From Verrucomicrobiota bacterium (GTDB lineage Bacteria > Verrucomicrobiota > Kiritimatiellia > JAHIZV01): a stretch of 64,000 nt of DNA. Location: positions 49,729 to 113,728 of the forward strand of contig JAHIZV010000237.1 in assembly GCA_018814445.1 (NCBI GenBank). Reading direction: 5' to 3'. Positions 3,001 to 23,816 of the stretch are shown here, piece after piece. Positions within the stretch are counted from its first letter, which is position 1. Each line of letters opens with the position of its first letter. The notes under the pieces are model-generated. The model did not search any database and was not told the DNA's origin. It saw only the letters and a program-made list of their open reading frames with translations. A program made the translations under genes and the position numbers.

Positions 3001-3001
3001 T
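1..3001 (-). CDS. Large secreted protein with thrombospondin-type-3-like Asp-rich Ca-binding repeats (partial; C-terminus lies beyond window start)
   Basis: Minus-strand frame is open from the window edge to an ATG at 2999-3001, preceded by a GGAAGGA RBS. N-terminus MKQYGRGTRGVLLPLLIITVFLSARTSEAAS looks like a signal peptide. Internal motifs include DSDGDGLSDYF and DTDGDGIDDGLEVGSGSNP. The ORF is absent from the ORF track because it runs off the window. Confidence 0.6.
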   Translation of the reverse strand, partial: MKQYGRGTRGVLLPLLIITVFLSARTSEAASVDLNQYQTLMSSKLTGIADLEDRFRDEQDTLIPVLPPGEGFILRQGIGARVLPFDMTDFPKEFNDGLVGEYKNSVLTYPVTVAEDQETRAALFVNSNEEVIYSLPASDDYDPYAYLFHLYPLIGTGTYPRWWISMQYALWDPSRIEVSITLVEEDDLELYLYAEAAAAQYAALSPSSGDGGYMMSTPSSNDLWLSIHGPVQDVWGVIDILAHIPIDFTNDLEMFSTTNVLTWSWELRATNLETVGTNVITWTDNDISNCVRRYYVAGNADRDADSDSLADAREIFLHRTSTNDWDTDDDGVSDGGEINDGTDPLNSDDPPNVSGFISYYGFQTGDVWVVAVVQSNAWATNYSSVSSGPGWYQITKLPPSNYWIKAFRDLDGDTVAESFEANGYYTNLVTITGQVTGISFEMSDPDSDGDSLPDWWEMRYGLDHELSNSVYADPDQDWLTLGEEYWWQANPMQTDSDGDGMPDGWEVAHCLNPVDASDGGADPDSDGVLSSNEYLAGTHPMAYTSRSAAIYLNGEFSDWVPSTNMVLTSKNIWSAYLYFEEYTTNEFAFEFHSLNFNNKEYTEAGWSPTSTNLLISGSTQELMYVSERPSTNQFFAEESGWYLIQLNEAISNSSVQSVSSVPEDFGDLCPTYRLASKLSIELGIYKYHYTNVFIPVSSGKYQVTAKVVTNFPTNPRYFSIVEEDEGKPWHVFWAETNQTDSLPDPLMTGTAEAWIPGVNNDDLVDIYVTRTNIHCLIEFDPSSGEYSVKFLEEAVDSDGDGLSDYFERFVSLTDVTLVDTDGDGIDDGLEVGSGSNPRSKLPASGINTNWLFHGNTEYWWPSAENLPHGSAAGFQKFLTGPRKGTNYIYLVAATNLVLGVDESAEVGAKVSYHNETLWLTGGHYLTAEIDSSGSFHGLPTLGVATVDVYRIPFSGSIITDDAEVVYWPYVRSIEGTDTVAEVFLYETNLVGAANSNNWIH

Positions 3002-3252
3002 ATATCCTTCCTTCCGCTATCTTGACACTGTCAGAAACGACCGTAGTCGCCCAGAGATAATGCCCCTCGTTTCGCCGGTCTATTTGCCCTCCTCGGACAT
3101 AAGAAAAGGCTACTCTATTGATGGCGTTCTGTCTTGTCGGGAAAAACCCCACATTTCGTTTATGAGCTCAGTCAGTCTCCGCTCGTGCTGAATCAGTGCA
3201 TCTCTTGCCGGATCTTCTTCTGCCGAGACAAGGCGAACTCCTTACGACTATG

Positions 3253-3299: not shown

Positions 3300-4523
3300 T
3301 TACGGCGTCCTCGTCGACCAGACGCTGAAAGCGCTCTCCAGCGGTTCCGTGCGGTCCCTGATGTAGACTTCGATGTCATTCACGACCACCTGATCACCGG
3401 GATCCAGACTCCCGTCTCCGAGCGCAGCATTGACTTGCGGCGTGATGTCTACGTACTCGTGACCGTTCGGAAGGTGCCCATCCGGCGTGACATACCGGCG
3501 TTCTGTATTCCAGTCCAACGCACACCAGAACGGCTCCGTGAGTGCAGGACCGCCTGCCCCCGAGTCATTCCGCAGCGTCAAAGTTCCGAAGAACGTACCG
3601 CGCTGACGGTCGAGAGTCCAAGTGAGCTTCGGAGACATAAGCATCGCTGTGACATTCGTGAATACCCCTGAAGCGACTTCGCCTGCCCACCACTCTTCGG
3701 CAGTCACCTGCCACGACGCACCGTTCGCCAGCGATTCACTGCGCCATTGCAGCGCGTACGCCGCGTCATGAATAGACGCATCCACCGTATCGGGAAGCGT
3801 TCCCCACTTACATGCGTTCCGCACGAGTTGAAAGTGGGCTTCATGGTGAGTGTCAGCGAGAGAGCCCCCCACCCCCTTCAACCCCATGAAGACCGGAGGA
3901 TCATTCGTGGTCAGCACGTACACGGTATTGGAACCTGCGCCCCAATGACCTGTCGCGACATCCTCGCCGGATGGAGATACATCACCGCCGTGGACAAAGC
4001 GAAGATTGTTGAAAGAGACGCCGGAACCGTTGGCGATAGTCCACTGCAGGGAGAAAAAAGGGTTCCCGTTCACATAAGAAACCAACTGGGTCACGACCAC
4101 ACCGCGTTGTCCCGCGCGAAGCGCTGTCTCAATCGACCAGGCATCGGGCATCGAATGGGAGACGGGCGTAAACCGGTCCGTACTCTCATCATCCCACAAC
4201 GCAAACGTGCTGGTACCGTTGCCAAATCGTGACGAAGCATTTGTGCCGTCGAGAAACAGAGCGGACCCTGTCGCAAAGGCAGAGTAGAATTGCGGCCGCG
4301 TCTCCGTCCCCTCCTGCCGCGTGACACCGATCGTTCCGTATTCGTCCACGCTGATCCGGAGAGGGTCGCCAGAGATTTGGAGCGTCTGCGTTGTCGCCGC
4401 CAACGGCAGCAGAACAAGAAGAGCTCCCAACATCGTACATCGAACATAACGCACCGAACATCGAAGGACTCCTGCAGTTCGGTGTTCGATGTTCAATGTT
4501 TGATGTTCGATGTTCCCGCTCAT
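3300..4523 (-). CDS. Secreted hypothetical protein (about 377 aa mature)
   Basis: The long ORF has an ATG at 4523 whose stop/start overlap with the upstream β-barrel gene is TGATG (one shared nucleotide). An alternative ATG at 4433 sits immediately before the hydrophobic signal sequence MLGALLVLLPLAATTQTLQ. The segment between the two starts is encoded by the palindromic repeat. No homolog is recognised by eye. Confidence 0.55.
   Translation of the reverse strand: MSGNIEHQTLNIEHRTAGVLRCSVRYVRCTMLGALLVLLPLAATTQTLQISGDPLRISVDEYGTIGVTRQEGTETRPQFYSAFATGSALFLDGTNASSRFGNGTSTFALWDDESTDRFTPVSHSMPDAWSIETALRAGQRGVVVTQLVSYVNGNPFFSLQWTIANGSGVSFNNLRFVHGGDVSPSGEDVATGHWGAGSNTVYVLTTNDPPVFMGLKGVGGSLADTHHEAHFQLVRNACKWGTLPDTVDASIHDAAYALQWRSESLANGASWQVTAEEWWAGEVASGVFTNVTAMLMSPKLTWTLDRQRGTFFGTLTLRNDSGAGGPALTEPFWCALDWNTERRYVTPDGHLPNGHEYVDITPQVNAALGDGSLDPGDQVVVNDIEVYIRDRTEPLESAFSVWSTRTP
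4434..4516. repeat. Imperfect palindromic (AACATCG)n repeat element, copy A of 3
   Basis: The left arm carries catcgaacat...ccgaacatcgaa. The right arm carries ttcggtgttcgatgttcaatgtttgatgttcgatgttc, with a CTGCAG centre. The same element is present at 20064-20158 and 33731-33832. Confidence 0.6.
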
Positions 4524-5788
4524 CAGAATCTCCTCCCGCCCTCAACACTCACCGAGTACCCGCTGATATCAATCGTCAACTCGTTCGGACCGATACTCCC
4601 CTTGAACTCATCGGGCACCCAGTCGTACCCGCCTGTCAGGACGGCGAACCAACTCTCGCCAAGTGCCACTTCCACACCCCCATGAAGTCCGAGACCGAAC
4701 AGCACATCGGATTCACACAGATCGTCCCGCCAACTTCCGAGGGTCGACGTCTGCCCGTTTTCCTCCGCCATCCATATCTCCCTACGATCGGCTTCGACAT
4801 CGACCAGATTCATGGAAACAATCGGGTTCAGGAAGAACGTCAAACCGCCTCCCGTCATCCACGTGAATTGAGGACCAATCCACAGCTCCAGGATCTGTGC
4901 TTCCACGTCAAAAGACACCTGATTGTAGGCCGTGATCCGGGAACTCGATCCGCCGCCGGCCGTGTAGTCCAACACTGCGCCGACCACATCCAACGACTCG
5001 GGGCGATTGGGAATGAGCGGTGATGGCGGAGGCCAGCCATCAAGGCTACCGGCGTACGGAGGCGAAGGAGGAACCACCCCCATCAAGTCATAGGTATATG
5101 TGGAGTCCTGAACGTAAGACACCGAGCCGCCTGTCCTGGTTCTGCTGATCTCTTCTGCGTACGGGGCCGCATTGAGATCAGACTCAATCCCCGGGAACCA
5201 TGTCACGCCCATGCGCAGATCGAAGGAGAAGCCCTCGTCTCGTTTGAGTCCGAGCGTTGCGCTAAGGTCGACGCCCAACGCGTCAAGATCGTCATCCAGA
5301 GAAACCGCGCTGCTCCACAACTCATCAATCGTCGTTCTCTGCTGCGATGCGCTCAACTGGAACATATCGTTGCGATGGAAGGTCAATGTGTCGGCTATGG
5401 GACTGTACTGACCCGCATTGTCATATCCCCAGTACCACGTGTCCCCGTCGTTCGGCGTTCCCGCGTCCATGAACACATACCCGTCATCGAACTGCCTGTC
5501 GGCATACTGCGTGATGTCATCAAGCGTCGGCACGGTGTACTGAAGACCCGAGTTACCGGCCGACGCGGCATGAAGCCCGTTCATCTGTACATACGACGAA
5601 CCCTCAATTTCCAGTCTCATGCCCGCGCGATAGGCGAGGCCCGCGGAGAAGCGCCAAGCGTCCGCCACGCTTCGCGTCGGCGCTAGAACAAACAACAAGA
5701 AACCAACAAGAAACAACGCATAACGGACGGGGAGCCGCGTTCCAGTGCTTGAGCGTTGATCGTTATCAGTTGATAGTTGAGCGTTCAT
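4523..5788 (-). CDS. Putative outer-membrane β-barrel protein
   Basis: ATG at 5786-5788 with a GAGGAAA RBS. Signal peptide MNAQL...LFLVGFLLFVLAPTRSVADA. Alternating amphipathic composition and a C-terminal ...SVEGGRRF ending in an aromatic residue are typical of outer-membrane β-barrels. Its start overlaps the upstream stop as ATGA. Confidence 0.6.
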   Translation of the reverse strand: MNAQLSTDNDQRSSTGTRLPVRYALFLVGFLLFVLAPTRSVADAWRFSAGLAYRAGMRLEIEGSSYVQMNGLHAASAGNSGLQYTVPTLDDITQYADRQFDDGYVFMDAGTPNDGDTWYWGYDNAGQYSPIADTLTFHRNDMFQLSASQQRTTIDELWSSAVSLDDDLDALGVDLSATLGLKRDEGFSFDLRMGVTWFPGIESDLNAAPYAEEISRTRTGGSVSYVQDSTYTYDLMGVVPPSPPYAGSLDGWPPPSPLIPNRPESLDVVGAVLDYTAGGGSSSRITAYNQVSFDVEAQILELWIGPQFTWMTGGGLTFFLNPIVSMNLVDVEADRREIWMAEENGQTSTLGSWRDDLCESDVLFGLGLHGGVEVALGESWFAVLTGGYDWVPDEFKGSIGPNELTIDISGYSVSVEGGRRF

Positions 5789-7395
5789 CACGGTTTCCTC
5801 ACCCTGAAATATCCTTTGCGATCCTCCGGCGGTGTGACCTTTGTTGTCACGCCCGTAACGGGTCCGCCCATCGGCATCCAATTCGTTCCCGGCAGAACCG
5901 GACTGAATTCGATGAGGTATACCCCGCCCTCCGATTTTCCGCTGCCGCCCTCATCCCACGTTATGGCTTTCAACCCGGCCTTGTCGTGGCCGAAGAGAAC
6001 AATACCGAGGAACTCCTTCGTGCCGCCGCCACCCCCTGCTCCGCCGCCGCCAATCCCGGGCAGTCCTGTCCATGCGTACGTGTCGTCCAGATAGACCGTT
6101 CCGGCTGACCCCGACACCCAGGAACCGGATCCCCCCGCGCTGACCATAGTCATCCCATTGGTGTTGCTGGAACCGGAAGGATAATAGACCGCGACCCTCC
6201 CCCCGCCTCCCGCGACTTCGTTGCCGCCGCCGTTAGCCCGAATGGTTCCATTGCCTGTCAGCCCGCCCGTCTCAATGTAGATCGTGCCTCCAGAACCACC
6301 CCCGGCCCCATCGCCACCCCCCGCGGAACCGTCGGCCGTTATGACACCATCCAGATCAAGCGATCCGGCCAGAATCCTGATCCAGCCGCCACCATCGCCG
6401 CCTGCCCACGAGTCACTGCCACCGCGTGATCCACCGGATCCCAGTGCCGCGGGATTCGTCGCGGTTCCGTAAACCGGATTGGGCGTGCCGCCCCCAGCGC
6501 CGCCGAGACCTCCGTACGATCCGCCGGATCGCTGTGAAGAACCGGTTGCATTGTTCAACGTGCGTCCGGAGTTGAAATTGATGTTAGGCGAGTGCTCTCC
6601 ACCCAGGTACCCGCGTCCGATCACATTGATCGAACTGTTGCTCGAAATTTGAAGTCTCTCGGCAAGTAATTGCAGCCGCGATTCCATAACCGTGGATGCA
6701 TCGAAGTGCGTCACCCCCCCGAACTGAGCCACGACCATGTTGCTCGTCACATGCAGAACATCGCCGAGAACAAGGAATCCCCCGCGTCGGAAAAAGACAT
6801 TGTCGTATACATGGACGGCAGCATAGGTGTCTCCAATCGAGGCGACATCTGTGAGCATTGTCCCACCGCTCACATCCACGGTAATGGACGTCGCGGTATT
6901 ACCGCTGACCGTGAAGACTTCTGTCTGATCCAGATTCGGGTTGACGGTGAGACCCACGAGTCCGCCCGGGAGCAGGGCCACCTTCTGATCTGTTGAGAAT
7001 TCATTGGAACTGACGGCCTGAATAGTCCCGTATCCCACCCGTGTCAAAGGAGTCCAACGCGTGGACGTGGAGCCGGATTTGTTGTCGTCAATGTACAGAT
7101 CGCCATACGTTTGTGCGTGCTGCCTCATCACAATCGTTCCGGCACTGCCCGGCGACCAAGATCCCGATCCGCCAAAAACCGTCACATTGCTGAGACTATT
7201 GAGATTATCACCTCCACCACCCAGCGCACCGTAGGTGATTCCGATCCGGCCTCCCGCACCCCCGACTTCATTTCCTCCGCCGTTCGCGGATACAGTTCCG
7301 GTGCCACGCAGGGTTCCCACTTGAATCTTAACGGACCCTCCGGACCCGCCCCCGGCTCCGTCACCATGACCGGGACCGCCCGCAGCCGTGATCGT
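5788..7395 (-). CDS. C-terminal segment of the giant Gly-rich repeat protein (same frame as 7396..15054, downstream of an in-frame TGA); ends in an FN3-like domain
   Basis: Same reading frame as the 2552-aa ORF. The repeat motifs (GDGAGGGSGG, ANGGGNEVGG, YGDLYIDDNK) continue uninterrupted across the stop. C-terminus ...GYFRVRKP. Confidence 0.5.
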   Translation of the reverse strand, partial: TITAAGGPGHGDGAGGGSGGSVKIQVGTLRGTGTVSANGGGNEVGGAGGRIGITYGALGGGGDNLNSLSNVTVFGGSGSWSPGSAGTIVMRQHAQTYGDLYIDDNKSGSTSTRWTPLTRVGYGTIQAVSSNEFSTDQKVALLPGGLVGLTVNPNLDQTEVFTVSGNTATSITVDVSGGTMLTDVASIGDTYAAVHVYDNVFFRRGGFLVLGDVLHVTSNMVVAQFGGVTHFDASTVMESRLQLLAERLQISSNSSINVIGRGYLGGEHSPNINFNSGRTLNNATGSSQRSGGSYGGLGGAGGGTPNPVYGTATNPAALGSGGSRGGSDSWAGGDGGGWIRILAGSLDLDGVITADGSAGGGDGAGGGSGGTIYIETGGLTGNGTIRANGGGNEVAGGGGRVAVYYPSGSSNTNGMTMVSAGGSGSWVSGSAGTVYLDDTYAWTGLPGIGGGGAGGGGGTKEFLGIVLFGHDKAGLKAITWDEGGSGKSEGGVYLIEFSPVLPGTNWMPMGGPVTGVTTKVTPPEDRKGYFRVRKP

Positions 7396-10300
7396 TCAAT
7401 TGACCGTCAGGTCATTCGAGACGACGAGATCGATTCGTCCACCACCGCTTCCACCGGCCCATGAATCGCTTCCGCCTCGCGAACCACCCGAACCGAGGTA
7501 GATGGGATTATGAGGGTCGCCATAGGCAGGATTGGGAGATCCTGCTCCGTAGGAAGCCCCATATCCGCCAAACGAGCCGCCCGACCTCTCCGATGAACCT
7601 ATCTGCCCCGCGAGCGTCAGTCCGTTGTTATTGTCCGTGTTGCCCGGCCTCTCACCACCTCGATAGCCTCGCGCGGTCACATCTATCGAACTCCCGGCGT
7701 CGATCTCAATGTTGTTCGCGTGAACCTGAAGGCCGTTTTCGTTGCTGAGTGTATGCGTCAGGACGCTGTTCGTCTGGAGCCGCAAGGCACCGGCCACGTT
7801 CAAGCCCGCATCTGCGGTCACCCGGGCCTTGTTCCTGAAGATGATGTTGTCGAATTCATAGCCGTCCAGGATAGGACACTTATCGATCGCGGGTTTCACA
7901 TTGTGCCCGTCAACGACCAGATCCCCATAAGTCTGGCTGGAATGCTTCAGGAACAGCGTGCCATTGCCTCCATTCGTCCAATTTCCGCTTCCGGCTCTGG
8001 CTTCAAGGTGACTCTGGTCGATAGCAAGCGTGTTGTAGCGAATGGCTATCCTTCCACCGCCACCACCGACCTCGTTGCCCCCGCCATTCGCGCGAATGAT
8101 GCCGCTTCCCGAAAGACTGTCTGCGTGTATGTCAATCGTTCCGCCCGAACCGCCTCCGGCCCCATCACCATGACCGCCCTGCCCGTTCGCGGAGATGATC
8201 CCATCATTCGCGATCGCACCCGCGGTTATGCGGACCCAACCACCGCCATCGCCACCCCACCAGGAATCACTGCCGCCACGCGAACCGCCCGAACCCAACT
8301 CCTCCGGGTTTGTCATGCTTCCATAGACGGAATTCGGCGCCCCAGCACCCCAATGACCTCCAAGTCCACCGTAGGAACCGCCCGCCCGCTCCGTGGAGCC
8401 GGCGGAGTTGTTCTCTGTCCGTCCCGAATTCACGCCGACGTTCTGATGGTGTTCGCCACCGAGATAGCCGACCGCATCGGCGTTGATATACCCGTTGCTG
8501 CTCAGTTCCAGCGTGCCTACCGTCAGATCCAGCCGTGATTCAAAGGTCGTCGTCGCTTTGAAATGCGTCAGTTTCCCGTGCTCATCGATTCTTACCGTAT
8601 CGCCAACAACGACCTTGTCTCCGCATCTGAGGGAACCGCCTCGCCGGAAGAAAATATTGTCAAAGCGATGTATCGCAGCATAACCGTCACCGGGCGCTGC
8701 CACGTCCGTGAGATTCGTGCCACCGCTCACATCGACCGTTATGGATGTCGCCGAGTTGCCGATAATGTCGAAGGTTGTCTGCTGCGTCAGGTCAGGATTG
8801 ATCTCCAGTCCGACGAGACCGCCGGGAAGGACGCGAACCGTCTGGTCCAGCAAGAGCATATTCGAGGACAACGCCTGCACCGTTCCGAAACCGACGTGCG
8901 TCAACCATGTGTAGTTTGTGGATGTCGAGACCTTGTTGTCGTCCACATACAGGTCACCGTAGCTTTGACTATGCCGCCTCATGACGACCGTTCCCGCCCC
9001 GCCCGGCGCACTCCACGTCCCGGATCCCCCGAACGCGCCGATATTGCGCAAGTCATTCAGATCGTCACTTTTCCCGCCGAGATAGTCATAGTCGATCAGA
9101 ATCCGACCGCCGCCACCGCCGATTTCGTTCCCGCCGCCATTCGCGCTGATACTACCGCTTCCTCGCAGAAGCGAGGTGTCGATCTTGATAGACCCGCCCG
9201 AGCCACCACCGGCGCCATCACCTGCACCAACCTGCCCGTCTGCCCTGATAACCCCTTCAACAACAACGGCTTCGGACGCTTCTATCGTGACCCTTCCGCC
9301 GCCGTTTCCGCCCGCCCAAGAGTCACTGCCTCCTCTCGATCCGCCGGAACCGAGGTACGCCGGGTTAAGATCCGAACCGTAAACAGGATTCGGAACCCCC
9401 GCGGAGGCGCCTCCGTATCCGCCGTACGATCCGCCTGCACTTTGAGAGGACCCCATCTGTTCCGCCAGCGTGAACCCGCTATTGTTAGGATTTCCATCGC
9501 GCTCGCCGCCGCGATAGCCCTTGGCACCCACATCGATCGAGCTGGAGGAGTCTATCTCCAGACGCTTGCACGTAATGCGTACGCCGTCGGTCAGCATCAG
9601 CGAATGCGTCATGATGCTACCGGTCAGAATCTCGATCTTGTTGCTGACTACGAGTTCATCATCGGCGACGACACGCGCCGTGTTCCTGATGATGATATTG
9701 TCGAAGACATGGCCCGGCGGGATCGGCAAAGCCGAGAAACTGGAACCCGCGCCCTGTCCATCAACGACGAGTGTTCCACCACCTTCATCGACCCCCTTGA
9801 GAAACACCGTGCCGTTTCCGCCATCGACCCAGTTGCCCTGACCGCCCAGGGCATGGAGCAGCGTCGTATCCCAAGTGTCGATGTCCACGTAGTGGACCGC
9901 AATCCGTCCACCCCCGCCCGCAACCTCGTTGCCGCCACCATCCGCGGTCAAATCGCCTCTTCCGCTCGCGGTCGTGACAATCAGGTAGACTGACCCGCCG
10001 GAACCGCCGCCGGCGCCATAGCCGTGCCCCGCCTGTCCGTCCGAAGTGATCAGGCCGTCGTTCACAATATTGATGGCCTGGATGAGAATCTTCCCGCCGC
10101 CGTCACCGCCCCACCAGGAATCACTCCCCCCGCGTGAACCACCCGACCCCAATTCGGAAGGCGCCGTTAAATCACCGTATAACGCGCACGGCGTCCCGCC
10201 CCATGCTCCACCTGTGCCTCCGTATGATCCTCCCGAACGCTGTGTAGAACCTGCGACGTTCCCTGACGTCCTCCCCTCATTCATGCCCGTGTTCGGAGCA

Positions 10301-13300
10301 TGTTCTCCGCCCAGATAGCCCAACTCGTCGACGTTGACGGCACTGTTCGAGTCAACGGTGACGGTCCATGCATCGATATCCACCCCGTATTCCGCCGTTG
10401 TTGTCGTGTCCGGATGCGTCACCACCGCGCCATTCAAGAGTTCAACATTGTGGAACATGTGATGACCGTTGATCGTTACGGTCACACCGTCTATACGCAG
10501 ATTCACATTGTCGTAGGCCGTATTTCCGAGCGAAATATTCGTGGGAGAGGATATGGTGATCCAGACCGTCCCGGCGCTGAACGCGCGCACTTCATCCGCC
10601 GTGACTACGCCGGTTGCATTGGTCGGCGGAAGTCCGCGGTTGCCGTATTGGTCGACACCTATCGAGTAGAATTCGTATGTTCCGTCCCCACCCATCTTCG
10701 CCGAATCGAAGATCAGGCTCCCCACGGCGACGCCGCCTGGATCGTAATGACCCAGTGAGTTCCCACCGTCAGCATCTGTGTAGCGGTTAAACGTCCCGTA
10801 GCCATCTCGCCGGAAGTAGATTTCAACGTGATCCAGATCGTCGAGGCCATCGGTGACCTCGTACGTCACCGTGGCAGTCGTACCTACCCCGGGATCGGCT
10901 ACGGCAGTCACCTCCGTCGCCGGAGGCGTGATATCAGCATCTGACAACACGATCGGCACATTGATCGCCGTCCCTTTATTATTTTCGTCGTCCCACGCCT
11001 CCGCATGCAGCGTAACGTCAGGATACGGCGCGCCGAAGGGAACGGATATGCTGAATACCTCATTTGTGCCACCGACCGATGCCCCGTAGATACGCGTCTC
11101 GTCAGAACTGAGTGCGCCTGTCGCGTAACACCGCACTATCTTGACACCGACTGCATCCGAAGCCACTACGACGACGGTCACCGTTTCTCCATAGCCATAC
11201 GCCGTTTCCGGAATCGGCGATGAGATGAATACTTGCGGCGATGTCCCGTCGCCAAGCTGAAGCACGATGCTGTCGACCGTCGAGGTGTGTGCGCTCGTAT
11301 CGACAGCCCATGTCCTGACAGTGATGACGCCGCTGATGGGTGCGTTACTTGAAACCGTGAAGTTGAAGACCTGCGTCGTATCCTTCTTCGATGGAGATAT
11401 CTGGCGTTGATCCGTGAATGTCGTCGCACCGGATACCGCGAGATAGATGCGGGTCACGCCATTCGTCGGATCCTGCGCCCGCACAGAAACCGGAACCAAC
11501 TCGTTGCGCTCGACGCCGGAACCGCTGGGCGGACTGAGAATATCAACGGTCGGAGGCGGATCCATTCCCGTATCAACGCTCACGTTAACAAACGCGGACG
11601 GCAGCCCTGAGCGATACACGGATATCTGCGTCAGCCCGTCGGATACCGCCGTAATCAGGCCCGAAAGTGAAACCGTCGCAATGGCGGGATTGCCGCTGAC
11701 AAATGTGTTTCCAGAATTCAGCGGCCCGCTTGTGCCGTTGTTGTACTGCCCGGTGACAGCAAGTTGTCTCGTGTTGCCCACGCCCGCCAACAACACCGAT
11801 TTCGGCGCTGCCGTGATGTTGGTGAGCTTGACAATATCCGCGAAGATCTCGGCCGTTGCCGCATTCGACCCCACAGCCGCCGATATCGTTGCGGCACCTC
11901 GTTTCAGAGCGACAACACGACCCGCACTGCTCACCGATGCCACAGATGGAACACTCGAAGAGAAGGTCGCTTTCCCGGTAACGTTGGATGCCGAACCTCC
12001 CTGGTAAAACCCAGTCACGACGAGATCCACAAATGCCCCCGCAGAGGGCAGAACGGCATTCGACGGGTAGGCTCTGATCGACATAATCACTGGTTTCGGC
12101 GGCACGACCGCAACGGTCGGAGGGCTCGGATCCGGACTCTGGGTGAAGTCATAGGCCACCAAACTGAGAACATTCCCGACGTTCGCGTTGATCGTCGCGG
12201 TGAAAGCGCCGGAACTATTTGCATATACACTGACGGCGACGTTCTGGTTCGTGTTCCGAATGTTAATCCGAGCGTTGGCCACGCTGGTACCGGTGACTTT
12301 CGAGGCGAGGCCTTCCGGCGGCGACACACCCGTGACCATCGGCGCAGCAGGAGGCACACCGGGGGGCGGCTCGATGATCGTGAACTCCAGATAGGAATCC
12401 GGATCGAATCTGTCGTTCGCAACACCGAGGTTGTTAGTCGCCAGCACAATGACCCTGTGCGTTCCGAGCGCGAGATTGGTGGTGTTGATCAGGATGGGAG
12501 AGGCGTTGGTACTGACCAGGTTCGTGGCACTCGCGATAAATACGTGGATGGAACGGACTCCGACATCATCCTCGACACTCGGATCAATCGAGAAGATGTC
12601 ACCCATTACGTACACCGCACCGTCCGACTCGTTGAAACTGATGACAGGCATGTTCAGATTCTCAACCAACTCGAAGTCGTAGTCATCGAATCCTGTCTGC
12701 CCCAAACCGTCTTCGGCCACCGCGCGGACGACATGCGTGGTGAGGCTCATGGTCAGCGTCGACAGCGTCGCCTGCCACGGAGGAAGCGTGACCGTTTTGT
12801 AAGGAACAAGCGCACCATCCAGAAAATATCTGACACGGCGCACACCGCCGGTCAGCGCTACCGGCTTCAACCTCACGGATATGCCCTGCAACTGAGGCGC
12901 GACAGGATCACCTGGAAGAACGATGGTAGGCGGATCGGCGGTCGGAGCCATGACAATCGAGATGGTCGCATTCTGACCGTTGAAGAGCCCGTCATAGGCC
13001 GTGGCCATGAGCTGGTATGTCCGTCCGGTCGTCAGATTCGATGAATCGAGTGCGAAGATGAACGGCGGCTCGTTGCCATGGAACACGCTCTTCTGATCCA
13101 CCAGTTTGTACAGGTTTGTAGGATTGGACATGTCCTTGATGCGCAGTTCCACACGGGCAACACCGCTTCCCTGATCGGATGCGTAGGCATTAACGCGGAC
13201 GATCTCACCGGGAAGGACGTAGTTAGGGTTCACAGGCGGCTCGATGGAAAGAGTCAGCAGAGGAGGATCCACATCACCCAGTCCCGTCGTGGTTGTCTTG

Positions 13301-15054
13301 AATACGCTGAGCCACTCATTATACAGGTGATTGCCGTCGCGGTCTCTTATCGCCTGGCTGACCCAGACCGTGTACTTCTCGCCGGGACGCCAGCGATTGA
13401 GCACACCGTCATCGACCTGCCAGATCGCCATGGAGCGGGAGCTCAGGTTCGTCTCGATCCTGATCTTCCCTTTCACCAGCCTGCCGGTGTCGTCGTAGAC
13501 GTTGAACGTACCGTTGGATCCCGTCGTTATGGTGTCGTGATTCATCAACTCGCTGAAGAACGCGACCACGGGCGACTCCGTCGAAATCCCCTGGGCGTTG
13601 TGCGCGGGCGCAACGGAGACAGCGGGAATACCCGCCGGAACGTCTGTCATCGGAGGATTGTGTCCGACCGCGCACCCGAGAGTCCCGACGACGACCTGGA
13701 GGCTGACATTCTGATCGGAGATGCCCATGCAGGATGAAATAGCCCCGCTTTCCGACGGGAGAACGGTGAAGGTCTCACTGATCGTCTCGCCCGGATCCAG
13801 ATGACCGAGCGCTCGCGTGACGGGCTCCTGCACGTATTCGCAGTCCGGCTCTCCCGTTGCCGCGTCCAGTTCACAATTCACAAGCTGCGCATCGGCGCTC
13901 ACATCGAGTTCAAGGCTGGCGTACATGGCGGGCAGTTCGCCGGTATTGAGTATTCTCACGGTCAGGTCATATGGCTCGCCGGCGATGACGAAGTCAGGAT
14001 GAAGCACGGTCACCTGGAAGTCCGGCGGCCCTTTCACTTCCACATCCGTTGTCGCGCTGCCATTAAAGGGGACGGCATCATCCCCCGCGATGCCCGGACC
14101 GACCACACTGCCCCCGAAGTTCACTGTGACGTCATGAATACCGATCTCATCGCCGCGAATGATGAACTCACGTTCCAGTTGACCCGGCTCGTCGGGGGTC
14201 CCCGGCAGAATGTCGCCGAAGGACACGATGCCATCGGCCGGTAGAGTGTGGCTCAAACCGCCGGCAGGAAACCCGATCTCGGCGACCACGTTGGAAAGCG
14301 TGAAAATACCCGATGTATTCATCAGCATCAGTCGAACAGAGAAGAACTCCTTCAGGCTCTTGATGCGGCCTTCAATAATGATCACGCCCGGTATGGGAGG
14401 AACTTCGATCGTTCCCGACGGTGAGACTTCCTGCGCGAAGAAGATGATCTCAGGCGGCAGTCTGGGTGCGTGTTTTTGCCCGGCAGGGTCGTCGGGCGGT
14501 GGCATCCTGTATGTCTCCGAACCTCCGCTGTTCCCGCCTGATCCTTTTGGAAACACAATGGGAAGGGAGATGGGGACCTCCTCTTTATCGATCGTCAGGA
14601 CGATCGTGAATGTCGACACGTTGAAGTTCTCCGGATCTTCAAGATCGATCACCCCGTCCGCAACCAACTGCTCAACTTCTTCCGTCGACAGCCGCTCCGA
14701 AGTGAGGCGCGAGACGACGATCTGATCGAGAGACAACTGCGTTACAGCGAGTTCAGCCGCTTCTGTGTTCCCGTACGAATCTGTCGCCGTCACCTGGATG
14801 TTGTTCACCGCGTTGCGGTTCAGAGGCAAATTGACCTCAAACGATCCACCCTCATCGGGAAGAACAGCGCTACCGGCGCCGCCCGGGGCGGTGACGTTGA
14901 CGGTGATTGCGGCGTCGGTCGGCATGGAGAGGCTTACGATGAGAAGAGAAAGCAGGAGAGCTGAGATGCGAATGGGAGAAAGGGAGAATGGGAGAGAGGG
15001 AGAGAATCTGCGTCTCCCATTCCTCCACTCTTCCTTTCTCCCACTCACCCTCAT
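7396..15054 (-). CDS. Giant secreted Gly-rich β-helix/β-roll repeat protein with Big_2-like Ig domains (2552 aa before the in-frame TGA)
   Basis: Long ORF with N-terminal hydrophobic segment ISALLLSLLIVSLSMPTDAA. It has at least five copies of an approximately 250-aa unit (GYLGGEH...GGSRGGSDSWxGGDGGG...GDGAGGGSGG...ANGGGNEVGGGGGRI...YGDLxVDxxNV). Big_2-like segments are also present (for example AGRVVALKRGAATISAAVGS). Its ATG overlaps the upstream stop as ATGA at 15051-15054. Confidence 0.7.
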   Translation of the reverse strand: MRVSGRKEEWRNGRRRFSPSLPFSLSPIRISALLLSLLIVSLSMPTDAAITVNVTAPGGAGSAVLPDEGGSFEVNLPLNRNAVNNIQVTATDSYGNTEAAELAVTQLSLDQIVVSRLTSERLSTEEVEQLVADGVIDLEDPENFNVSTFTIVLTIDKEEVPISLPIVFPKGSGGNSGGSETYRMPPPDDPAGQKHAPRLPPEIIFFAQEVSPSGTIEVPPIPGVIIIEGRIKSLKEFFSVRLMLMNTSGIFTLSNVVAEIGFPAGGLSHTLPADGIVSFGDILPGTPDEPGQLEREFIIRGDEIGIHDVTVNFGGSVVGPGIAGDDAVPFNGSATTDVEVKGPPDFQVTVLHPDFVIAGEPYDLTVRILNTGELPAMYASLELDVSADAQLVNCELDAATGEPDCEYVQEPVTRALGHLDPGETISETFTVLPSESGAISSCMGISDQNVSLQVVVGTLGCAVGHNPPMTDVPAGIPAVSVAPAHNAQGISTESPVVAFFSELMNHDTITTGSNGTFNVYDDTGRLVKGKIRIETNLSSRSMAIWQVDDGVLNRWRPGEKYTVWVSQAIRDRDGNHLYNEWLSVFKTTTTGLGDVDPPLLTLSIEPPVNPNYVLPGEIVRVNAYASDQGSGVARVELRIKDMSNPTNLYKLVDQKSVFHGNEPPFIFALDSSNLTTGRTYQLMATAYDGLFNGQNATISIVMAPTADPPTIVLPGDPVAPQLQGISVRLKPVALTGGVRRVRYFLDGALVPYKTVTLPPWQATLSTLTMSLTTHVVRAVAEDGLGQTGFDDYDFELVENLNMPVISFNESDGAVYVMGDIFSIDPSVEDDVGVRSIHVFIASATNLVSTNASPILINTTNLALGTHRVIVLATNNLGVANDRFDPDSYLEFTIIEPPPGVPPAAPMVTGVSPPEGLASKVTGTSVANARINIRNTNQNVAVSVYANSSGAFTATINANVGNVLSLVAYDFTQSPDPSPPTVAVVPPKPVIMSIRAYPSNAVLPSAGAFVDLVVTGFYQGGSASNVTGKATFSSSVPSVASVSSAGRVVALKRGAATISAAVGSNAATAEIFADIVKLTNITAAPKSVLLAGVGNTRQLAVTGQYNNGTSGPLNSGNTFVSGNPAIATVSLSGLITAVSDGLTQISVYRSGLPSAFVNVSVDTGMDPPPTVDILSPPSGSGVERNELVPVSVRAQDPTNGVTRIYLAVSGATTFTDQRQISPSKKDTTQVFNFTVSSNAPISGVITVRTWAVDTSAHTSTVDSIVLQLGDGTSPQVFISSPIPETAYGYGETVTVVVVASDAVGVKIVRCYATGALSSDETRIYGASVGGTNEVFSISVPFGAPYPDVTLHAEAWDDENNKGTAINVPIVLSDADITPPATEVTAVADPGVGTTATVTYEVTDGLDDLDHVEIYFRRDGYGTFNRYTDADGGNSLGHYDPGGVAVGSLIFDSAKMGGDGTYEFYSIGVDQYGNRGLPPTNATGVVTADEVRAFSAGTVWITISSPTNISLGNTAYDNVNLRIDGVTVTINGHHMFHNVELLNGAVVTHPDTTTTAEYGVDIDAWTVTVDSNSAVNVDELGYLGGEHAPNTGMNEGRTSGNVAGSTQRSGGSYGGTGGAWGGTPCALYGDLTAPSELGSGGSRGGSDSWWGGDGGGKILIQAINIVNDGLITSDGQAGHGYGAGGGSGGSVYLIVTTASGRGDLTADGGGNEVAGGGGRIAVHYVDIDTWDTTLLHALGGQGNWVDGGNGTVFLKGVDEGGGTLVVDGQGAGSSFSALPIPPGHVFDNIIIRNTARVVADDELVVSNKIEILTGSIMTHSLMLTDGVRITCKRLEIDSSSSIDVGAKGYRGGERDGNPNNSGFTLAEQMGSSQSAGGSYGGYGGASAGVPNPVYGSDLNPAYLGSGGSRGGSDSWAGGNGGGRVTIEASEAVVVEGVIRADGQVGAGDGAGGGSGGSIKIDTSLLRGSGSISANGGGNEIGGGGGRILIDYDYLGGKSDDLNDLRNIGAFGGSGTWSAPGGAGTVVMRRHSQSYGDLYVDDNKVSTSTNYTWLTHVGFGTVQALSSNMLLLDQTVRVLPGGLVGLEINPDLTQQTTFDIIGNSATSITVDVSGGTNLTDVAAPGDGYAAIHRFDNIFFRRGGSLRCGDKVVVGDTVRIDEHGKLTHFKATTTFESRLDLTVGTLELSSNGYINADAVGYLGGEHHQNVGVNSGRTENNSAGSTERAGGSYGGLGGHWGAGAPNSVYGSMTNPEELGSGGSRGGSDSWWGGDGGGWVRITAGAIANDGIISANGQGGHGDGAGGGSGGTIDIHADSLSGSGIIRANGGGNEVGGGGGRIAIRYNTLAIDQSHLEARAGSGNWTNGGNGTLFLKHSSQTYGDLVVDGHNVKPAIDKCPILDGYEFDNIIFRNKARVTADAGLNVAGALRLQTNSVLTHTLSNENGLQVHANNIEIDAGSSIDVTARGYRGGERPGNTDNNNGLTLAGQIGSSERSGGSFGGYGASYGAGSPNPAYGDPHNPIYLGSGGSRGGSDSWAGGSGGGRIDLVVSNDLTVN

Positions 15055-18000
15055 TCCACAACCTCTACACTAAGCACTCCAAGTGGCAGACCGTCTTCAT
15101 GGTAATAGCCACAGCCATCCGCCGTCAGTTCAGTCACCTCAAAGCCGTTCACCTTCACGATGACCGTCGCACCGGGGATGGGATTACCATCACCGTCTTT
15201 TGCCACGCCGGAGACGGCCTGGCTTGTCGCGGGAGCAGTCTGCCGTCTGACCCTCGTTGAAAGGGAAACGCCGCTGATGTAAGGACCGTTTGCGGCTGCT
15301 CGCCCGGTCAGATAATTATCGCCCGTGTTCAGAGGCACGTTGTTAACGATGAAGTCGTTGTCGTTCCCGGTAAAAACGAGCGGATAGCTTCCTCCGCTTG
15401 CGTCAAGCGTACCGCCTGTAAGCGTGAAGTCCGTGTCCGCCGGAAAGATCGTTCCGCGAACCGTGACGGTCCCGTTCGACACGATCTCTCCGTCAGCCGG
15501 TGACGTGATCACCACGCAGGGCGCCGGGCGAAGCGTGGATCCGCATCGCCAATCGATAACGATGTCTTCCGTGAAGTTAGTCAGAGGATGACTGACATCC
15601 AGGATGCCGACTGACGCGGCTGTATAGCCGCCGAAGGTGTAGTAGCCATTTCCATCCGCCAGCGTCTTCTCCTCGCCGCCAGCAGTGATAAGCTTTACAA
15701 CCGCGCCGACAAGCGGCTGGTCGTCCTCCGTCAGCGCCCTTCCCGTAAACCCGAAACGGGTGTACTGCACGCCCGCGTCCGTAACGTAGATGAGCGCCTT
15801 CCCGTCATCTGCGATCGCCACATCCATCGGATGTGGAACGTTCTCGATAAAGGTGTACGCGGTCATGAGCTCGGAATATTGCGCGGGATCGGAAGGGACA
15901 AGTAGCGGGAGGTCGCTGACGGGAACTCTGAGTATCCGGTTGGCCGCCATATCAGCAATAAACAGGTAGGTCGCGTAGCGTGACTCGCAGAACGCGCATG
16001 AGGTCGCATTATCGAAAACCGTGCCGTTGATGAAGAGGCCCTGCGCTGTATCTCCTTTCGTCCGCACGATGTTGTTCCCCTGGGTGATGTAGAGCCATTC
16101 CTTCGTCAAGTCGAACTCCAAATCGGTCCACGCGTCGAACGCAAAGATATCGGGCCACGTCGACCAGCTCTCGTTCTCGCCCCACAAGCCTTTTGCCACG
16201 TTGTGATACGCGACGGCCAGGTTGGCGTAGTTACTTCCGAGATACTGCTCACTCCAACTCACGTCGATCTTCTTGACCGTCGTATCGTAGTTGTCGGCAA
16301 GGTACAGTTCCTCGTCGTATGCGTCCGTTCCCTTGCTGCCCATCGCGATGTCCTGGATTGATGTCGGTCGCCCGCGCAGCAGCGTTTGTGAGAAGTAGTT
16401 CACGTTGGCTACGTGAGAACGCCCGGTCGCAAGACCCGTCACAGCATCCATGTAGAATTTGAATATCTTCCCGCCGTAAGCCATCTGTGACGCCCCGTTG
16501 ACCGCGTACAGATCACCGTCCGAATCCATGGTCATGCCCACTTGACCAGGCTGCATGAATAGACTGTTGTGCGACACGGCTTCAACCATCTCGCTCTTCT
16601 CTGGGCGATACAGGAAGATCGCACCGCTCCCGCGATCGTTGTTGAATTTGAAGTCGGGAATACTGATGTAGATCCGGTCGGGCTTGTCGTAGTCCGCAAC
16701 AAGATCTATATGCCCGAAAGGTGCGAAACCTGTCCCGGCGCCGCGCACAAAGACCGATCCGACGCGCGACAGGGCGCTGACATCGAGCCGCTCCCCTTCG
16801 ATGAAGGCTTTGCCCGGATGAATATTGCGGGTGCCCAGCTTCAGCACCTGGTCCTGCGAAGCCGCGAGCGGATCATCCAGATATCCCGAGAGCCATGGCT
16901 TCACTTTTGCCAGCGTATTTGTGTTATCGAGAGCCTTCTTCACCACATTCTCGCTTCCGCGTATGCAGTCGATCCGGTAATACTGGTGACCCGGCTCAGG
17001 GAACGGCACGCGGAAAACCAGTTTCGCCGTATCGTTGGTGTCTCTGTGAGGAGAGAAGAAATCACTTCTGTCGGTGGTTTCCTGCCCGGCGGCGACAATC
17101 TTCATCGCCGCCCGTTCGGAAACAGTGGTGCCTTTGGGCTGCCACTGCCATAGCCGGTAAGCGTAAGTTTCTTCCTTCTTCACCCGCTCATCCGGACTCG
17201 GATAGAACAGAATTTCGACAAAGGGAATGTACAGCGGGTTGTACGCGCTTCCTATATTCCGCCGCACTTCCTTCACGGAATGGAGATACGGCGCCGCAGG
17301 GGCGAGAGACTTGATCAGTACCGCCGAGGTCACCGTCGGATCTGTGCCAAGCGCAAGGAACATCATCGGCGACAGGGTTCCATGTCCCCAACTGACTTTG
17401 AATGGCGCCCAGATGCTGCCGCTGCTGTAGTCGCGTCCGGCAATCGCAATGAAGTTCGTGCGAAGATGAATATCCGTCGCCGTAATGCGAACAAGACTGG
17501 TGACGGCCGCCACTACCCCGTACTTGTCCTTGTTGAAGATGTTGGCGATCGTCGGATTACCGGGAAATGCATTCTCCAGTTGCAGTCGTGCCGCGGCGAG
17601 CGAGTTGGTCGTGCCGTCCATGTAGTACTTGCTGAGGATGTCCTCAAACCCCGGCAATTCACGGTTCACGGCATTCGTTGAGTTGAAAACAGCCTCTGTC
17701 GGATAGTCCCCCATCTCCTGCGCCAACCTCTCCCACGTGATCGTATACGTGCCCGCCTTTCCGCCCGGAACCTGGGCCACAGCATCGGGCCCGCACACGA
17801 AGTCGTGGACGGCTTTGGACAAGGATTCGCCGAGAGACATCACGAAGGCATCTTCCGGCGGGGTCGGAGCCCAGACCCAATCATCACGATGGTGATACGC
17901 CGCACTCATGAAGCCGCTGACCATGATGAAGGCCTGCAGTTTGGTCAGCCTGGTCGCACCGTTCAGGACGGGAGGATTAGGGCTGAGATTGCGCCCCGTG

Positions 18001-20165: not shown

Positions 20166-20728
20166 GGCGTCCCCCCCGCCGTAACGGCCACGTTGTCCAC
20201 CCGCACCGCGCTATCCCCGGCGACGAAGTTCAGGTCGTAGAGCTCGAAGATAACGATGACGTACGTGTGACTGTTGTTGAACGTACCGGAGAAATGCGAC
20301 CAGCCCGCGCCTTTCGGCGAATCGCCGATCGTTCCATTGATGTTGAAGTTTCCGTTTGCGTCGCAGTCGAAAAGGCCCTGCGACGCGTCGAACTTGTCGT
20401 TCTCGGTGATAAAATCGGAAAGCGTGTCGACGTAATAGACAGACGCATAGAAGGAATCATTGAAAGCGCCATCGGGGACCTCCACCGAAAGTGCGCTGCG
20501 GAAGTCGAATTCAATCGTGAACTGCCCCGCACCGACCTCATCCGCCTGAAACACAAACGCATGAACATCCTGCGTGTCCGCGAGCACGGCCTCGCCACCA
20601 GCTGACGTCACATGCCAGGCGGTCTTCCAATGGATAAGCGCAGAAGTGAAATCGCCGTTCAGAATCGCGGACGCACTGGTTGCGCCAACGAACAGCGCCA
20701 AAGCCCAAGCCAGTCCTAACCTCCTCAC
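20162..20728 (-). CDS. Small secreted β-sandwich protein (NGDF-type carbohydrate-binding/galactose-binding-like N-terminal motif), first gene of the giant-protein cluster
   Basis: GTG start at 20726-20728, 5 nt after a strong AAGGAGG RBS. Signal peptide VRRLGLAWALALFVGATSASA followed by ILNGDFTS. The upstream part of the longer tracked ORF (from 20815) lacks an RBS. Confidence 0.5.
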   Translation of the reverse strand: MRRLGLAWALALFVGATSASAILNGDFTSALIHWKTAWHVTSAGGEAVLADTQDVHAFVFQADEVGAGQFTIEFDFRSALSVEVPDGAFNDSFYASVYYVDTLSDFITENDKFDASQGLFDCDANGNFNINGTIGDSPKGAGWSHFSGTFNNSHTYVIVIFELYDLNFVAGDSAVRVDNVAVTAGGTP

Positions 20729-20744
20729 ACAAGCCTCCTTAGCC

Positions 20745-20790
20745 TCCACGGCTAATATTTTATTAGACTCTTTTTCGTTCAGGAATACAA
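20745..20790 (-). promoter_or_regulatory. Candidate σ70-type promoter for the giant-protein cluster
   Basis: On the minus strand: TTGTAT (revcomp of 20775-20780), 17 bp spacer, TCTAAT (revcomp of 20752-20757). It sits in an AT-rich stretch about 25 nt upstream of the AAGGAGG RBS. Confidence 0.25.
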
Positions 20791-20838
20791 GAACCGGGAG
20801 GAACAATTCCCACATGTCCCCATAGAACTCCTGTCATC

Positions 20839-23644: not shown

Positions 23645-23816
23645 CCGTCAGAATTCCAGGCTGGTAGACCTGTAGCCACCTTAGAGGATGCAGAGGAGAA
23701 GTGATAGCCCGGATGCAGAAAGAAGGAGTTGACCCGGACCGTCTTCGGCGCAGACTTCCAATGCTTGGAACTTTTTCTCAGAAAACTTCCAAGGTATGGA
23801 AGTTTCCGGGTACGAT

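What the first reader, a model, noticed from the sequence alone, without database searches (positions are those of the whole stretch)
5788..15054. Giant Gly-rich repeat protein (about 3060 aa) split by a single in-frame TGA at a position where paralogous repeats have Gly
ORFs 7396..15054 and 5788..7395 are in the same frame, separated only by a TGA at 7396-7398. The repeat architecture continues straight through the stop. The interrupted copy reads ...GGSGGGRIDLVVSNDLTVN*TITAAGGPGHGDGAGGGSGG. The four intact copies read ...NDGIISANGQGGHGDGAGGGSGG, ...LDGVITADGSAGGGDGAGGGSGG and similar. The stop therefore aligns with the conserved Gly of the D-G-[IVL]-I-x-A-D-G motif, consistent with a single GGA to TGA change. 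Possible explanations are a recent nonsense mutation in a giant adhesin-like gene, a consensus or sequencing error in a repeat-rich region, or stop-codon readthrough. The downstream part keeps an ATGA overlap with the β-barrel gene, so the frame has been preserved.
Basis: seen in the sequence. Interest (0 to 1): 0.6.

Follow-up and report, generated by a model that had tools for sequence, protein, structure and literature searches.

The report
Premature stop in giant adhesin-like gene
One very large surface-protein gene of an uncultured groundwater-biofilm bacterium is cut by a single stop codon that replaces a conserved glycine codon, which is most likely an ordinary, very recent nonsense mutation and not an unusual way of reading the genetic code.

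Summary
On the minus strand, 15054..5788 is one frame of 3,088 codons with a single internal TGA at 7398..7396. The TGA sits exactly where the paralogous repeats, three uninterrupted ~2,900-3,000-aa homologues and 98% of 373 aligned homologous motif copies have Gly. GGA to TGA is one substitution.

No recoding signal was found. TGA ends 13 of the 22 other listed genes. No other gene is interrupted. There is no SECIS-like structure, no Rfam hit and no tRNA.

The 535 codons after the stop show no decay: no further stops, the same identity to homologues, and an intact fifth repeat. The repeats share no 21-mer, so repeat collapse is unlikely. An independent Logan assembly of Illumina run SRR2540949 matches the window 100% over 8,957 nt, but does not cover the TGA.

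Best reading (0.65): a real, very recent nonsense substitution. It truncates a secreted protein made of Ig-like domains plus five beta-helix modules, and uncouples a downstream outer-membrane barrel gene. A consensus error (about 0.18) can only be excluded with reads.

GenBank annotates the tail as a separate 510-aa protein (KJ626_15760). The finding is ordinary and of low interest. The Pfam-less beta-helix family is a side note.

The parts
5788..15054 (-). Complete ancestral reading frame of the giant secreted protein: 3,088 codons including the internal TGA.
   Evidence: It is collinear with the intact ORFs in L005 (50.5% identity over 2,984 columns), L001 and L002.
7396..7398 (-). The in-frame TGA (codon 2553). 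The plus strand reads TCA. The inferred ancestral codon is GGA (plus strand TCC), so the diagnostic base is plus-strand 7398, A versus C.
   Evidence: The column is Gly in 367 of 373 homologous motif copies and in all three full-length homologues.
7399..15054 (-). Upstream piece of 2,552 aa: an N-terminal signal-peptide-like segment, an Ig-like domain region (Big_5, Big_6, Big_2, Big_7) and beta-helix modules 1-3 plus the first part of module 4.
   Evidence: ORF list, Pfam, motif scores.
5791..7395 (-). Downstream piece of 535 codons, still fully open. It holds the rest of module 4, the linker domain, module 5 and a C-terminal domain of about 80-100 aa. GenBank annotates 5788..7320 (GTG start, 510 aa) as the separate protein KJ626_15760 / MBU0679557.1.
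   Evidence: 0 stops in frame against 15-16 in the other frames and about 19 in shuffles; identity to homologues is unchanged; annotation.
9925..10164 (-). Gly-rich motif copy 1 (A-type, aa 1631-1710).
   Evidence: HMM score 68.6 bits.
9124..9366 (-). Gly-rich motif copy 2 (B-type, aa 1897-1977). Its Gly1934 is the paralogue of the stop position.
   Evidence: 76.1 bits. This Gly is invariant in 32 sequences and lies in the two-residue turn between two predicted strands.
8071..8310 (-). Gly-rich motif copy 3 (A-type, aa 2249-2328).
   Evidence: 76.5 bits.
7267..7509 (-). Gly-rich motif copy 4 (B-type, aa 2516-2596), which contains the TGA.
   Evidence: 75.8 bits with the stop scored as X, which is not degraded relative to the other copies.
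6217..6456 (-). Gly-rich motif copy 5 (A-type, aa 2867-2946), downstream of the stop.
   Evidence: 78.6 bits, the highest of the five.
4523..5788 (-). Downstream 421-aa gene, a predicted eight-stranded outer-membrane beta-barrel. Its ATG overlaps the natural stop of the giant gene.
3300..4523 (-). 407-aa gene, last of the tightly coupled cluster. No family assigned.
   Evidence: No Pfam or NCBIfam hit. Homologue at the same position in L001.
15051..20165 (-). Upstream 1,704-aa surface-protein gene (CarboxypepD_reg, Big_9, cadherin-like). Its stop overlaps the giant gene's ATG as ATGA.
   Evidence: Homologue upstream of the giant gene in L001.

Best explanation
A single G-to-T substitution changed a GGA glycine codon into TGA (codon 2553 on the coding strand; plus-strand 7398 C to A). 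The gene would otherwise be a 3,088-codon gene for a secreted, adhesin-like protein of an uncultured PVC-group bacterium (Verrucomicrobiota/Kiritimatiellota-like).

The protein has a signal peptide, about 1,500 aa of Ig-like domains, five right-handed beta-helix modules (A-B-A-B-A) and a small C-terminal domain. The lost glycine sits in a tight [D/N]-G turn between two strands of a helix rung.

Shown:
- The stop is at this position, and homologues have one uninterrupted ORF with Gly there.
- TGA is the normal stop codon in this genome.
- No recoding signal was found.
- The 3' part shows no decay.

Inferred:
- The base is real in the sequenced population.
- The event is very recent, with less than roughly 1% neutral divergence since it happened.
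- Translation ends at codon 2552. The product lacks the end of module 4, module 5 and the C-terminal domain.
- The 1.6 kb now left untranslated breaks translational coupling to the overlapping outer-membrane-barrel gene and the 407-aa gene, so their expression probably falls.
- Any full-length protein would come only from background UGA leakiness.
For: - Single TGA in 3,088 codons.
- Gly at that column in 367 of 373 motif copies, in the paralogues and in L005, L001 and L002.
- The intact homologues are single ORFs of 2,865-2,966 aa, and each has exactly five motif copies. Many further representatives of about 2,950-3,450 aa exist.
- TGA ends 13 of the 22 other listed genes, and no other gene in 64 kb is interrupted.
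- No tRNA. No Rfam hit, even at E <= 10, across 7000-7800. The RNA fold downstream of the TGA is no better than shuffles, z = -0.72.
- Downstream of the stop: 0 in-frame stops against about 19 expected, identity to homologues 50-55% against 45-56% upstream, and copies 4 and 5 score 75.8 and 78.6 bits.
- The repeats share no 21-mer inside 5000-16000.
- The run that holds this population, SRR2540949, is Illumina HiSeq 2x150 (PMC5364579). Logan contigs from it are 100% identical to the window over 7,020 + 1,937 nt.
Against: - No read-level or second-assembly evidence covers position 7398. The Logan contig L008 ends at 6075, 1.3 kb short of it.
- No relative closer than about 52% identity exists in the collections searched.
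- The complete absence of decay downstream fits a consensus error, or a minority variant, equally well.
- One tip mismatch between L008 and the window shows that either some microdiversity or read error exists in this data set.
Confidence: 0.65

Rival explanations
1. Consensus, sequencing or assembly error. The true base gives GGA, the gene is intact in the organism, and the stop exists only in the deposited contig.
For: - The downstream 535 codons are perfectly preserved, as expected if nothing ever happened to the gene.
- The sequence comes from a metagenome-assembled genome.
- Logan contigs of the same run are short and break nearby (6075 and 4137), and one has a tip mismatch. This suggests modest coverage or microdiversity.
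Against: - The matching run is Illumina data, where consensus substitution errors are rare. This rests on established knowledge and was not measured here.
- An independent assembly matches the window at 8,957 of 8,957 aligned bases.
- No other gene in 64 kb is broken, including genes of 5,908 and 1,704 aa.
- The modules share no 21-mer, so repeat collapse or chimerism is unlikely.
- Only about 3% of random substitutions create a stop.
Confidence: 0.18
2. Functional recoding of this UGA. Possible forms are programmed readthrough, selenocysteine insertion or a Gly-inserting suppressor. The cell would then make full-length protein, perhaps alongside a short isoform.
For: - The frame is kept open for 535 codons after the stop.
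- The stop is followed by A. UGA-A is not a strong termination context in model bacteria (from general knowledge, not tested here).
- UGA = Gly exists as genetic code 25 in other lineages (general knowledge).
Against: - TGA is the commonest genuine stop in the window, 13 of the 22 other listed genes.
- Only 1 of about 486 Gly positions in the gene is TGA.
- All other genes are intact with full-length Pfam coverage.
- No SECIS-like hairpin, no Rfam hit at E <= 10, no tRNA in the window.
- Homologues carry GGN and not a conserved TGA or Cys/Sec, so the stop is not conserved as a programmed signal would be.
- No slippery heptamer precedes it (sequence).
- Near-cognate readthrough of UGA normally inserts Trp, which would not restore a Gly turn (general knowledge).
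Confidence: 0.04
3. Stable gene fission. The two pieces are now two functional genes, as GenBank annotates them: a 2,552-aa protein and a 510-aa protein starting at GTG 7320.
For: - GenBank lists the 510-aa product as its own CDS, KJ626_15760.
- An in-frame GTG lies 25 codons after the stop.
Against: - The split falls inside a beta-helix rung at an invariant turn residue, not at a domain boundary.
- The 510-aa product would start mid-module without a signal peptide (sequence).
- The only Shine-Dalgarno-like GGAGG lies about 16 nt from the GTG.
- All close homologues are single ORFs with five modules.
Confidence: 0.03

Closest known systems
Nonsense-truncated large adhesin or surface-protein genes (recent pseudogenes), as described in host-adapted Salmonella and other bacteria
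   Same: A single premature stop in an otherwise intact, very long surface-protein gene. The rest of the gene is not yet degraded. Annotators may split it into two CDSs. PMC6540521 discusses the caveat that such 'pseudogenes' may still yield some full-length protein through suppression.
   Different: This case is in an uncultured PVC bacterium from a deep-groundwater biofilm. It comes from a metagenome assembly, so fixation in the population is unknown. The protein family itself is uncharacterised.
Genetic code 25 (UGA = Gly) of Gracilibacteria/Absconditabacteria (from general knowledge)
   Same: A UGA at a position where homologues have Gly.
   Different: Here TGA terminates 13 of the 22 other listed genes. 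Only one of about 486 Gly positions is TGA. G+C is 51-60%. The defining features were tested and not met.
Right-handed beta-helix adhesins: tapirins, TpsA secretion domains (EtpA, HMW1, FHA, HxuA) and autotransporter passengers (Hbp, UpaB, Ag43, pertactin)
   Different: - There is no sequence-level membership: no Pfam, NCBIfam or meaningful PDB sequence hit for the modules.
- The partner barrel is a small eight-stranded OmpA/OmpW-like barrel, not an Omp85/TpsB or an autotransporter barrel.
- The modules alternate with small beta-barrel linker domains, and about 1,500 aa of Ig-like domains precede them.

Membership tests
Recently interrupted gene (nonsense pseudogene or truncation) | Homologues encode one uninterrupted ORF that is collinear across the break. 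| tested here: met
   L005 has 2,966 aa, L001 2,865 aa and L002 2,953 aa. The alignment runs straight through codon 2553.
Recently interrupted gene (nonsense pseudogene or truncation) | The stop replaces a conserved sense codon that is reachable by one substitution. | tested here: met
   Gly in 367 of 373 motif copies and in all full-length homologues. GGA to TGA is one step, and GGA makes up 18-28% of the gene's Gly codons.
Recently interrupted gene (nonsense pseudogene or truncation) | The stop is present in the underlying reads or the population. | not testable with these tools
   Reads cannot be accessed. Logan contig L008 ends 1.3 kb short of the site. Guessed partial products could not be looked up.
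Selenoprotein gene (UGA = Sec) | A SECIS hairpin immediately 3' of the UGA. | tested here: not met
   The fold of 7400..7320 has z = -0.72 against shuffles. No Rfam match at E <= 10 in 7000-7800.
Selenoprotein gene (UGA = Sec) | Homologues carry Cys or Sec at the aligned position. | tested here: not met
   The column is Gly, with minor Ala/Ser/Leu/Pro in distant copies and no Cys among the top residues.
Selenoprotein gene (UGA = Sec) | The genome encodes tRNA-Sec and selA/selB/selD. | not testable with these tools
   No tRNA in the 64-kb window. The rest of the genome is not available.
Reassigned genetic code (code 25 UGA = Gly, or code 4 UGA = Trp) | TGA is not used as a terminator, and many in-frame TGAs occur at conserved positions. 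| tested here: not met
   TGA ends 13 of the 22 other listed genes. The other same-frame ORF pairs separated by TGA are distinct genes: mreD/pbp2 and rsmD/coaD.
Programmed stop-codon readthrough | The stop codon and its context are conserved in orthologues. | tested here: not met
   All homologues examined have a Gly codon at this position.
Two-partner-secretion exoprotein (TpsA) or autotransporter | An N-terminal TPS domain or a C-terminal autotransporter barrel recognisable by sequence, and an Omp85-type TpsB partner. | tested here: not met
   Pfam finds only Ig-like domains in the giant protein and nothing in the 421-aa neighbour. The neighbour's model is an eight-stranded OmpA/OmpW-like barrel. 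Only the beta-helix fold is shared.
Eight-stranded outer-membrane beta-barrels (OmpA-TM/OmpW/NspA-like), for the 421-aa downstream gene | A signal peptide, an antiparallel barrel of long strands and a C-terminal aromatic residue. | tested here: met
   [not shown]

The most novel reading that the evidence does not exclude
The UGA is deliberately leaky. A fraction of ribosomes read through it, so one gene yields two products. One is a short 2,552-aa form that is released. The other is a full 3,088-aa form whose fifth beta-helix module and C-terminal domain engage the co-encoded outer-membrane barrel. This would be a translational switch between shed and anchored adhesin in a biofilm bacterium.
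Probability: 0.04. Interest if true: 0.55.

Novelty: new member of a known kind. Interest (0 to 1): 0.15.

Why it matters
The main value is annotation and method.

- Annotation: GenBank's KJ626_15760 (510 aa) and its upstream neighbour are two halves of one roughly 3,090-aa gene. They should be flagged as a single interrupted gene.
- Method: a stop that lines up with a conserved Gly looks like UGA = Gly recoding. Here that is simply what a nonsense hit in a Gly-rich gene looks like, because 13% of all possible stop-creating substitutions in this gene are GGA to TGA.
- Biology, if the stop is real: this biofilm population carries a freshly truncated giant surface protein, probably with reduced expression of its partner outer-membrane barrel. 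That could be a loss-of-adhesion variant.
- Side note: the beta-helix module family is large (about 4,000 cluster representatives), models confidently, and has no Pfam or NCBIfam entry.

Tried and rejected
- **Exact look-ups of window proteins.** The 2,552-aa ORF, MreB, FabG and the 407-aa protein were not on record. The first 422-aa query used the wrong start codon. It succeeded once the start was corrected to ATG 5788.
- **Collection scans.** A pattern spanning the site with N at the variable base found nothing in metagenome contigs. Protein-guided scans of genome contigs and metagenome contigs found only homologues of 44-52% identity. No population or sister-strain comparison was therefore possible.
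- **Reaching the Logan contig across the TGA.**
  - Nine guessed products were absent from the listing of cluster members. The 95-aa positive control was absent too, so that tool does not index cut products and the negative result is uninformative. The same control does work in the look-up of encoding contigs.
- **PDB sequence hit to CroV588.** It is a leucine-rich-repeat protein (PMC9525666). I rejected the hit as a compositional match.
- **Cluster representative P0268 (44 aa).** It is unrelated sequence, so I ignored it.
- **Local double frameshift.** The +2 frame around the stop reads PDGQLNDHG. I rejected this because the in-frame B-type alignment is gap-free and restores the consensus with a single base change.
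- **Interrupted homologues as a systematic phenomenon.** L009 and L010 are broken by frameshifts, not in-frame stops, and their contig names suggest long-read assemblers (my inference from the names). I did not treat this as the same phenomenon.
- **Apparent lack of ORFs in window 1-3000.** This is an ORF that runs off the window edge.

Full report
**Observation.** The minus strand from 15054 to 5788 translates as 3,089 codons, with stops only at codon 2553 and at the natural end. The internal stop is TGA at 7398..7396, in the context GTC AAT TGA ACG ATC. The mechanical ORF list shows the two pieces: 7396..15054 (2,552 aa) and 5788..7320 (510 aa from the first GTG), in one frame.

**Repeat structure.** Five copies of a Gly-rich motif start at aa 1636, 1902, 2254, 2521 and 2872.
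- The copies alternate between two subtypes, A-B-A-B-A, with a 618-aa super-repeat.
- The interrupted copy is B-type. It has the same length as the other B copy, so the two align without gaps: RVTIEASEAVVVEGVIRADG against RIDLVVSNDLTVN*TITAAG. The stop falls on that copy's Gly.
- The paralogous codons are GGC, GGG, GGG and GGT.

**Is the Gly really conserved?**
- A search with 758 aa around the stop found 772 homologues, the best about 52% identical.
- An HMM built from the five window copies pulled 388 motif copies out of the best 120. The column under the stop is Gly in 367 of 373 non-gap cells.
- In 1,004 copies from 142 more distant cluster representatives it is Gly in 792.
- Three homologous loci carry uninterrupted ORFs of 2,966 aa (L005), 2,865 aa (L001) and 2,953 aa (L002).
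- The window protein aligns collinearly with them, 50.5% identity over 2,984 columns to L005, straight through codon 2553. All three have Gly there: VVDGSILANG, LIDGEIRASG and TLDGFVLANG.
- Each of the four proteins has exactly five strong motif copies.
- Of the one-step sense neighbours of TGA, only GGA gives Gly, so the ancestral codon was almost certainly GGA. GGA supplies 18-28% of the gene's Gly codons.

**Is it more than chance?** The existence of the stop is a fact. Its coincidence with a Gly codon is not surprising. The gene has 99 GGA codons, and GGA to TGA is 99 of the 756 possible stop-creating single substitutions. The alignment tells us what was there before. It is not evidence that UGA is read as Gly.

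**Recoding tests.**
- TGA terminates 13 of the 22 other genes listed in the window, against TAG 7 and TAA 2. For one of the 24 listed coordinates (40668) the script returned CAG, so that gene's stop was not identified.
- The only other same-frame ORF pairs separated by one TGA on the coding strand are separate genes: mreD/pbp2 and rsmD/coaD.
- The housekeeping genes (mreB, mreC, pbp2, rodA, rng, plsX, fabH/D/G/F and others) show full-length Pfam coverage.
- There is no tRNA in the window.
- There is no Rfam hit at gathering thresholds, and none even at E <= 10 across 7000-7800.
- The 81 nt from the stop onward fold no better than shuffles (-31.5 kcal/mol, z = -0.72).
- No slippery heptamer precedes the stop.
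- Homologues have GGN at this position, so the stop is not conserved.

Code 25 or 4, Sec insertion and programmed readthrough are therefore each unsupported by the features that could be tested.

**State of the downstream part.**
- The 535 codons after the stop contain no further stop. The other two sense-strand frames contain 16 and 15, the three antisense frames 5, 14 and 28, and composition shuffles about 19.
- Identity to L005 is 50-55% after the stop and 45-56% before it.
- Motif copy 4 (with the stop scored as X) and copy 5 score 75.8 and 78.6 bits. The three upstream copies score 68.6-76.5 bits.
- About 3% of substitutions would create another stop, and indels would also disrupt the frame. 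The interruption is therefore either very young or not real.

**Provenance and reliability.**
- The 421-aa, 407-aa, 510-aa and RodA products are identical to GenBank proteins MBU0679556.1, MBU0679555.1, MBU0679557.1 and MBU0679565.1. They come from a MAG labelled 'Verrucomicrobia bacterium' (locus tags KJ626_157xx), on a 137,237-nt contig.
- GenBank thus annotates the post-stop fragment as an independent hypothetical protein starting at GTG 7320.
- RNase G is about 70-73% identical to proteins from Lentisphaerota and Verrucomicrobiota MAGs. The best operon match is in a Tichowtungia (Kiritimatiellota) MAG.
- Two contigs of the Logan assembly of SRR2540949 are 100% identical to the window. L007 covers 22805-29824 (7,020 nt). 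L008 covers 6075-4139 (1,937 nt) and has one mismatch in its last two bases.
- SRR2540949 is an Illumina HiSeq 2x150 metagenome of a biofilm grown on garnet in 'modern marine' groundwater at the Aspo Hard Rock Laboratory (PMC5364579).
- MAGs from these Aspo samples were assembled with MEGAHIT for the Fennoscandian Shield database (PMC8275790). That this particular MAG belongs to that project is my inference.
- The modules of the giant gene share no exact 21-mer, so repeat collapse cannot have produced the stop.
- L008 stops 1.3 kb short of the TGA. I could not retrieve a Logan contig across it.
- From established knowledge of short-read de Bruijn assembly, a consensus substitution error is much rarer than a real variant. 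Only the reads can settle this.

**What the protein is.**
- Pfam finds Big_5, Big_6, Big_2 and Big_7 Ig-like domains between aa 479 and 1237, and nothing in the repeat region or the tail. NCBIfam finds nothing.
- The N-terminus reads as a signal peptide (...ISALLLSLLIVSLSMPTDA).
- An AlphaFold2 model of the intact super-repeat aa 1530-2150, built on a 32-sequence alignment, has mean pLDDT 93.7 and pTM 0.90 and is all-beta.
- The paralogue of the lost Gly (Gly1934, residue 405 of the modelled segment) is invariant in the alignment. It lies in the two-residue turn between strands 392-403 and 406-408.
- Foldseek found nothing significant in the PDB.
- The module is widespread. 4,001 representatives of 50%-identity clusters match at E <= 1e-3 and 403 at E <= 1e-30. 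Most are proteins of 2,000-7,000 aa with 3-11 copies.

**Operon.**
- The genes for a 217-aa (or 188-aa) protein, the 1,704-aa protein, the giant protein, the 421-aa protein and the 407-aa protein overlap at each junction by 1-4 nt.
- L001 has homologues of the 1,704-aa, giant, 421-aa and 407-aa genes in the same order.
- The junction with the giant gene is GTGATGA. The natural stop at 5790..5788 shares a base with ATG 5788..5786, and the Logan gene call uses that ATG.

**Mechanism (inferred).**
- If the T is real, ribosomes terminate at codon 2552, inside a helix rung.
- The exported product lacks the rest of module 4, the linker, module 5 and the C-terminal domain. All four full-length homologues compared keep five modules.
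- The 1.6 kb of now-untranslated mRNA separates the ribosomes from the overlapping start of the barrel gene. Coupling is therefore lost, and Rho-dependent polarity is likely.
- The GTG at 7320 has no well-placed Shine-Dalgarno sequence, and its product would lack a signal peptide. An independently functional 510-aa protein is therefore unlikely.

**Verdict.** My estimates are:
- a recent, real nonsense substitution: 0.65
- a consensus error: about 0.18
- functional recoding: about 0.04
- stable gene fission: about 0.03

This is an ordinary kind of event in an uncharacterised but widespread family of giant beta-helix surface proteins.

Noticed in passing
[not shown]
   Followed up: partly
[not shown]
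   Followed up: partly
window 5788-7320 (-): GenBank annotates the post-stop fragment as an independent hypothetical protein (KJ626_15760, MBU0679557.1, 510 aa from GTG 7320), not as part of an interrupted gene.
   Followed up: yes
window 3300-20815 (-): Five genes (217/188 aa, 1,704 aa, giant, 421 aa, 407 aa) overlap by 1-4 nt at every junction. The order 1,704 aa, giant, 421 aa, 407 aa is conserved in a Tichowtungia (Kiritimatiellota) MAG, L001.
   Followed up: partly
window 45566-63292 (-) and 41886-45494 (+): There is a second, uninterrupted giant gene of 5,908 aa (Beta_helix, NosD, Disaggregatase-related, DUF5123). Next to it is a 1,202-aa protein with eight Calx-beta stretches and a lamin-tail domain.
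   Followed up: partly
L010 3740-3830; L009 4257-13162: Homologues of the giant gene in two ENA assemblies are split into 3-4 called genes by frameshifts. In L010 a 1-nt insertion lies 6 codons after the Gly equivalent to the window's stop. L009 has several shifts. The contig names ('ctg71989l', 'contig_26') suggest long-read assemblers, so these are probably indel errors.
   Followed up: partly
window 4138 (end of L008): The Logan contig L008 differs from the window at its penultimate base (A versus G) and ends there. It also breaks at 6075 without any repeat. This hints at modest coverage or microdiversity of this population in SRR2540949.
   Followed up: no
window 2-3016 (-): A further open frame of more than 1,005 codons runs off the start of the window. 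It is not shown by the ORF lister, because ORFs that run off either end of the source are omitted.
   Followed up: no
window 5785-5790 (-): The natural end of the giant gene is a tandem in-frame TGA TGA. It is created by the overlap with the downstream GTG-ATG start region.
   Followed up: no
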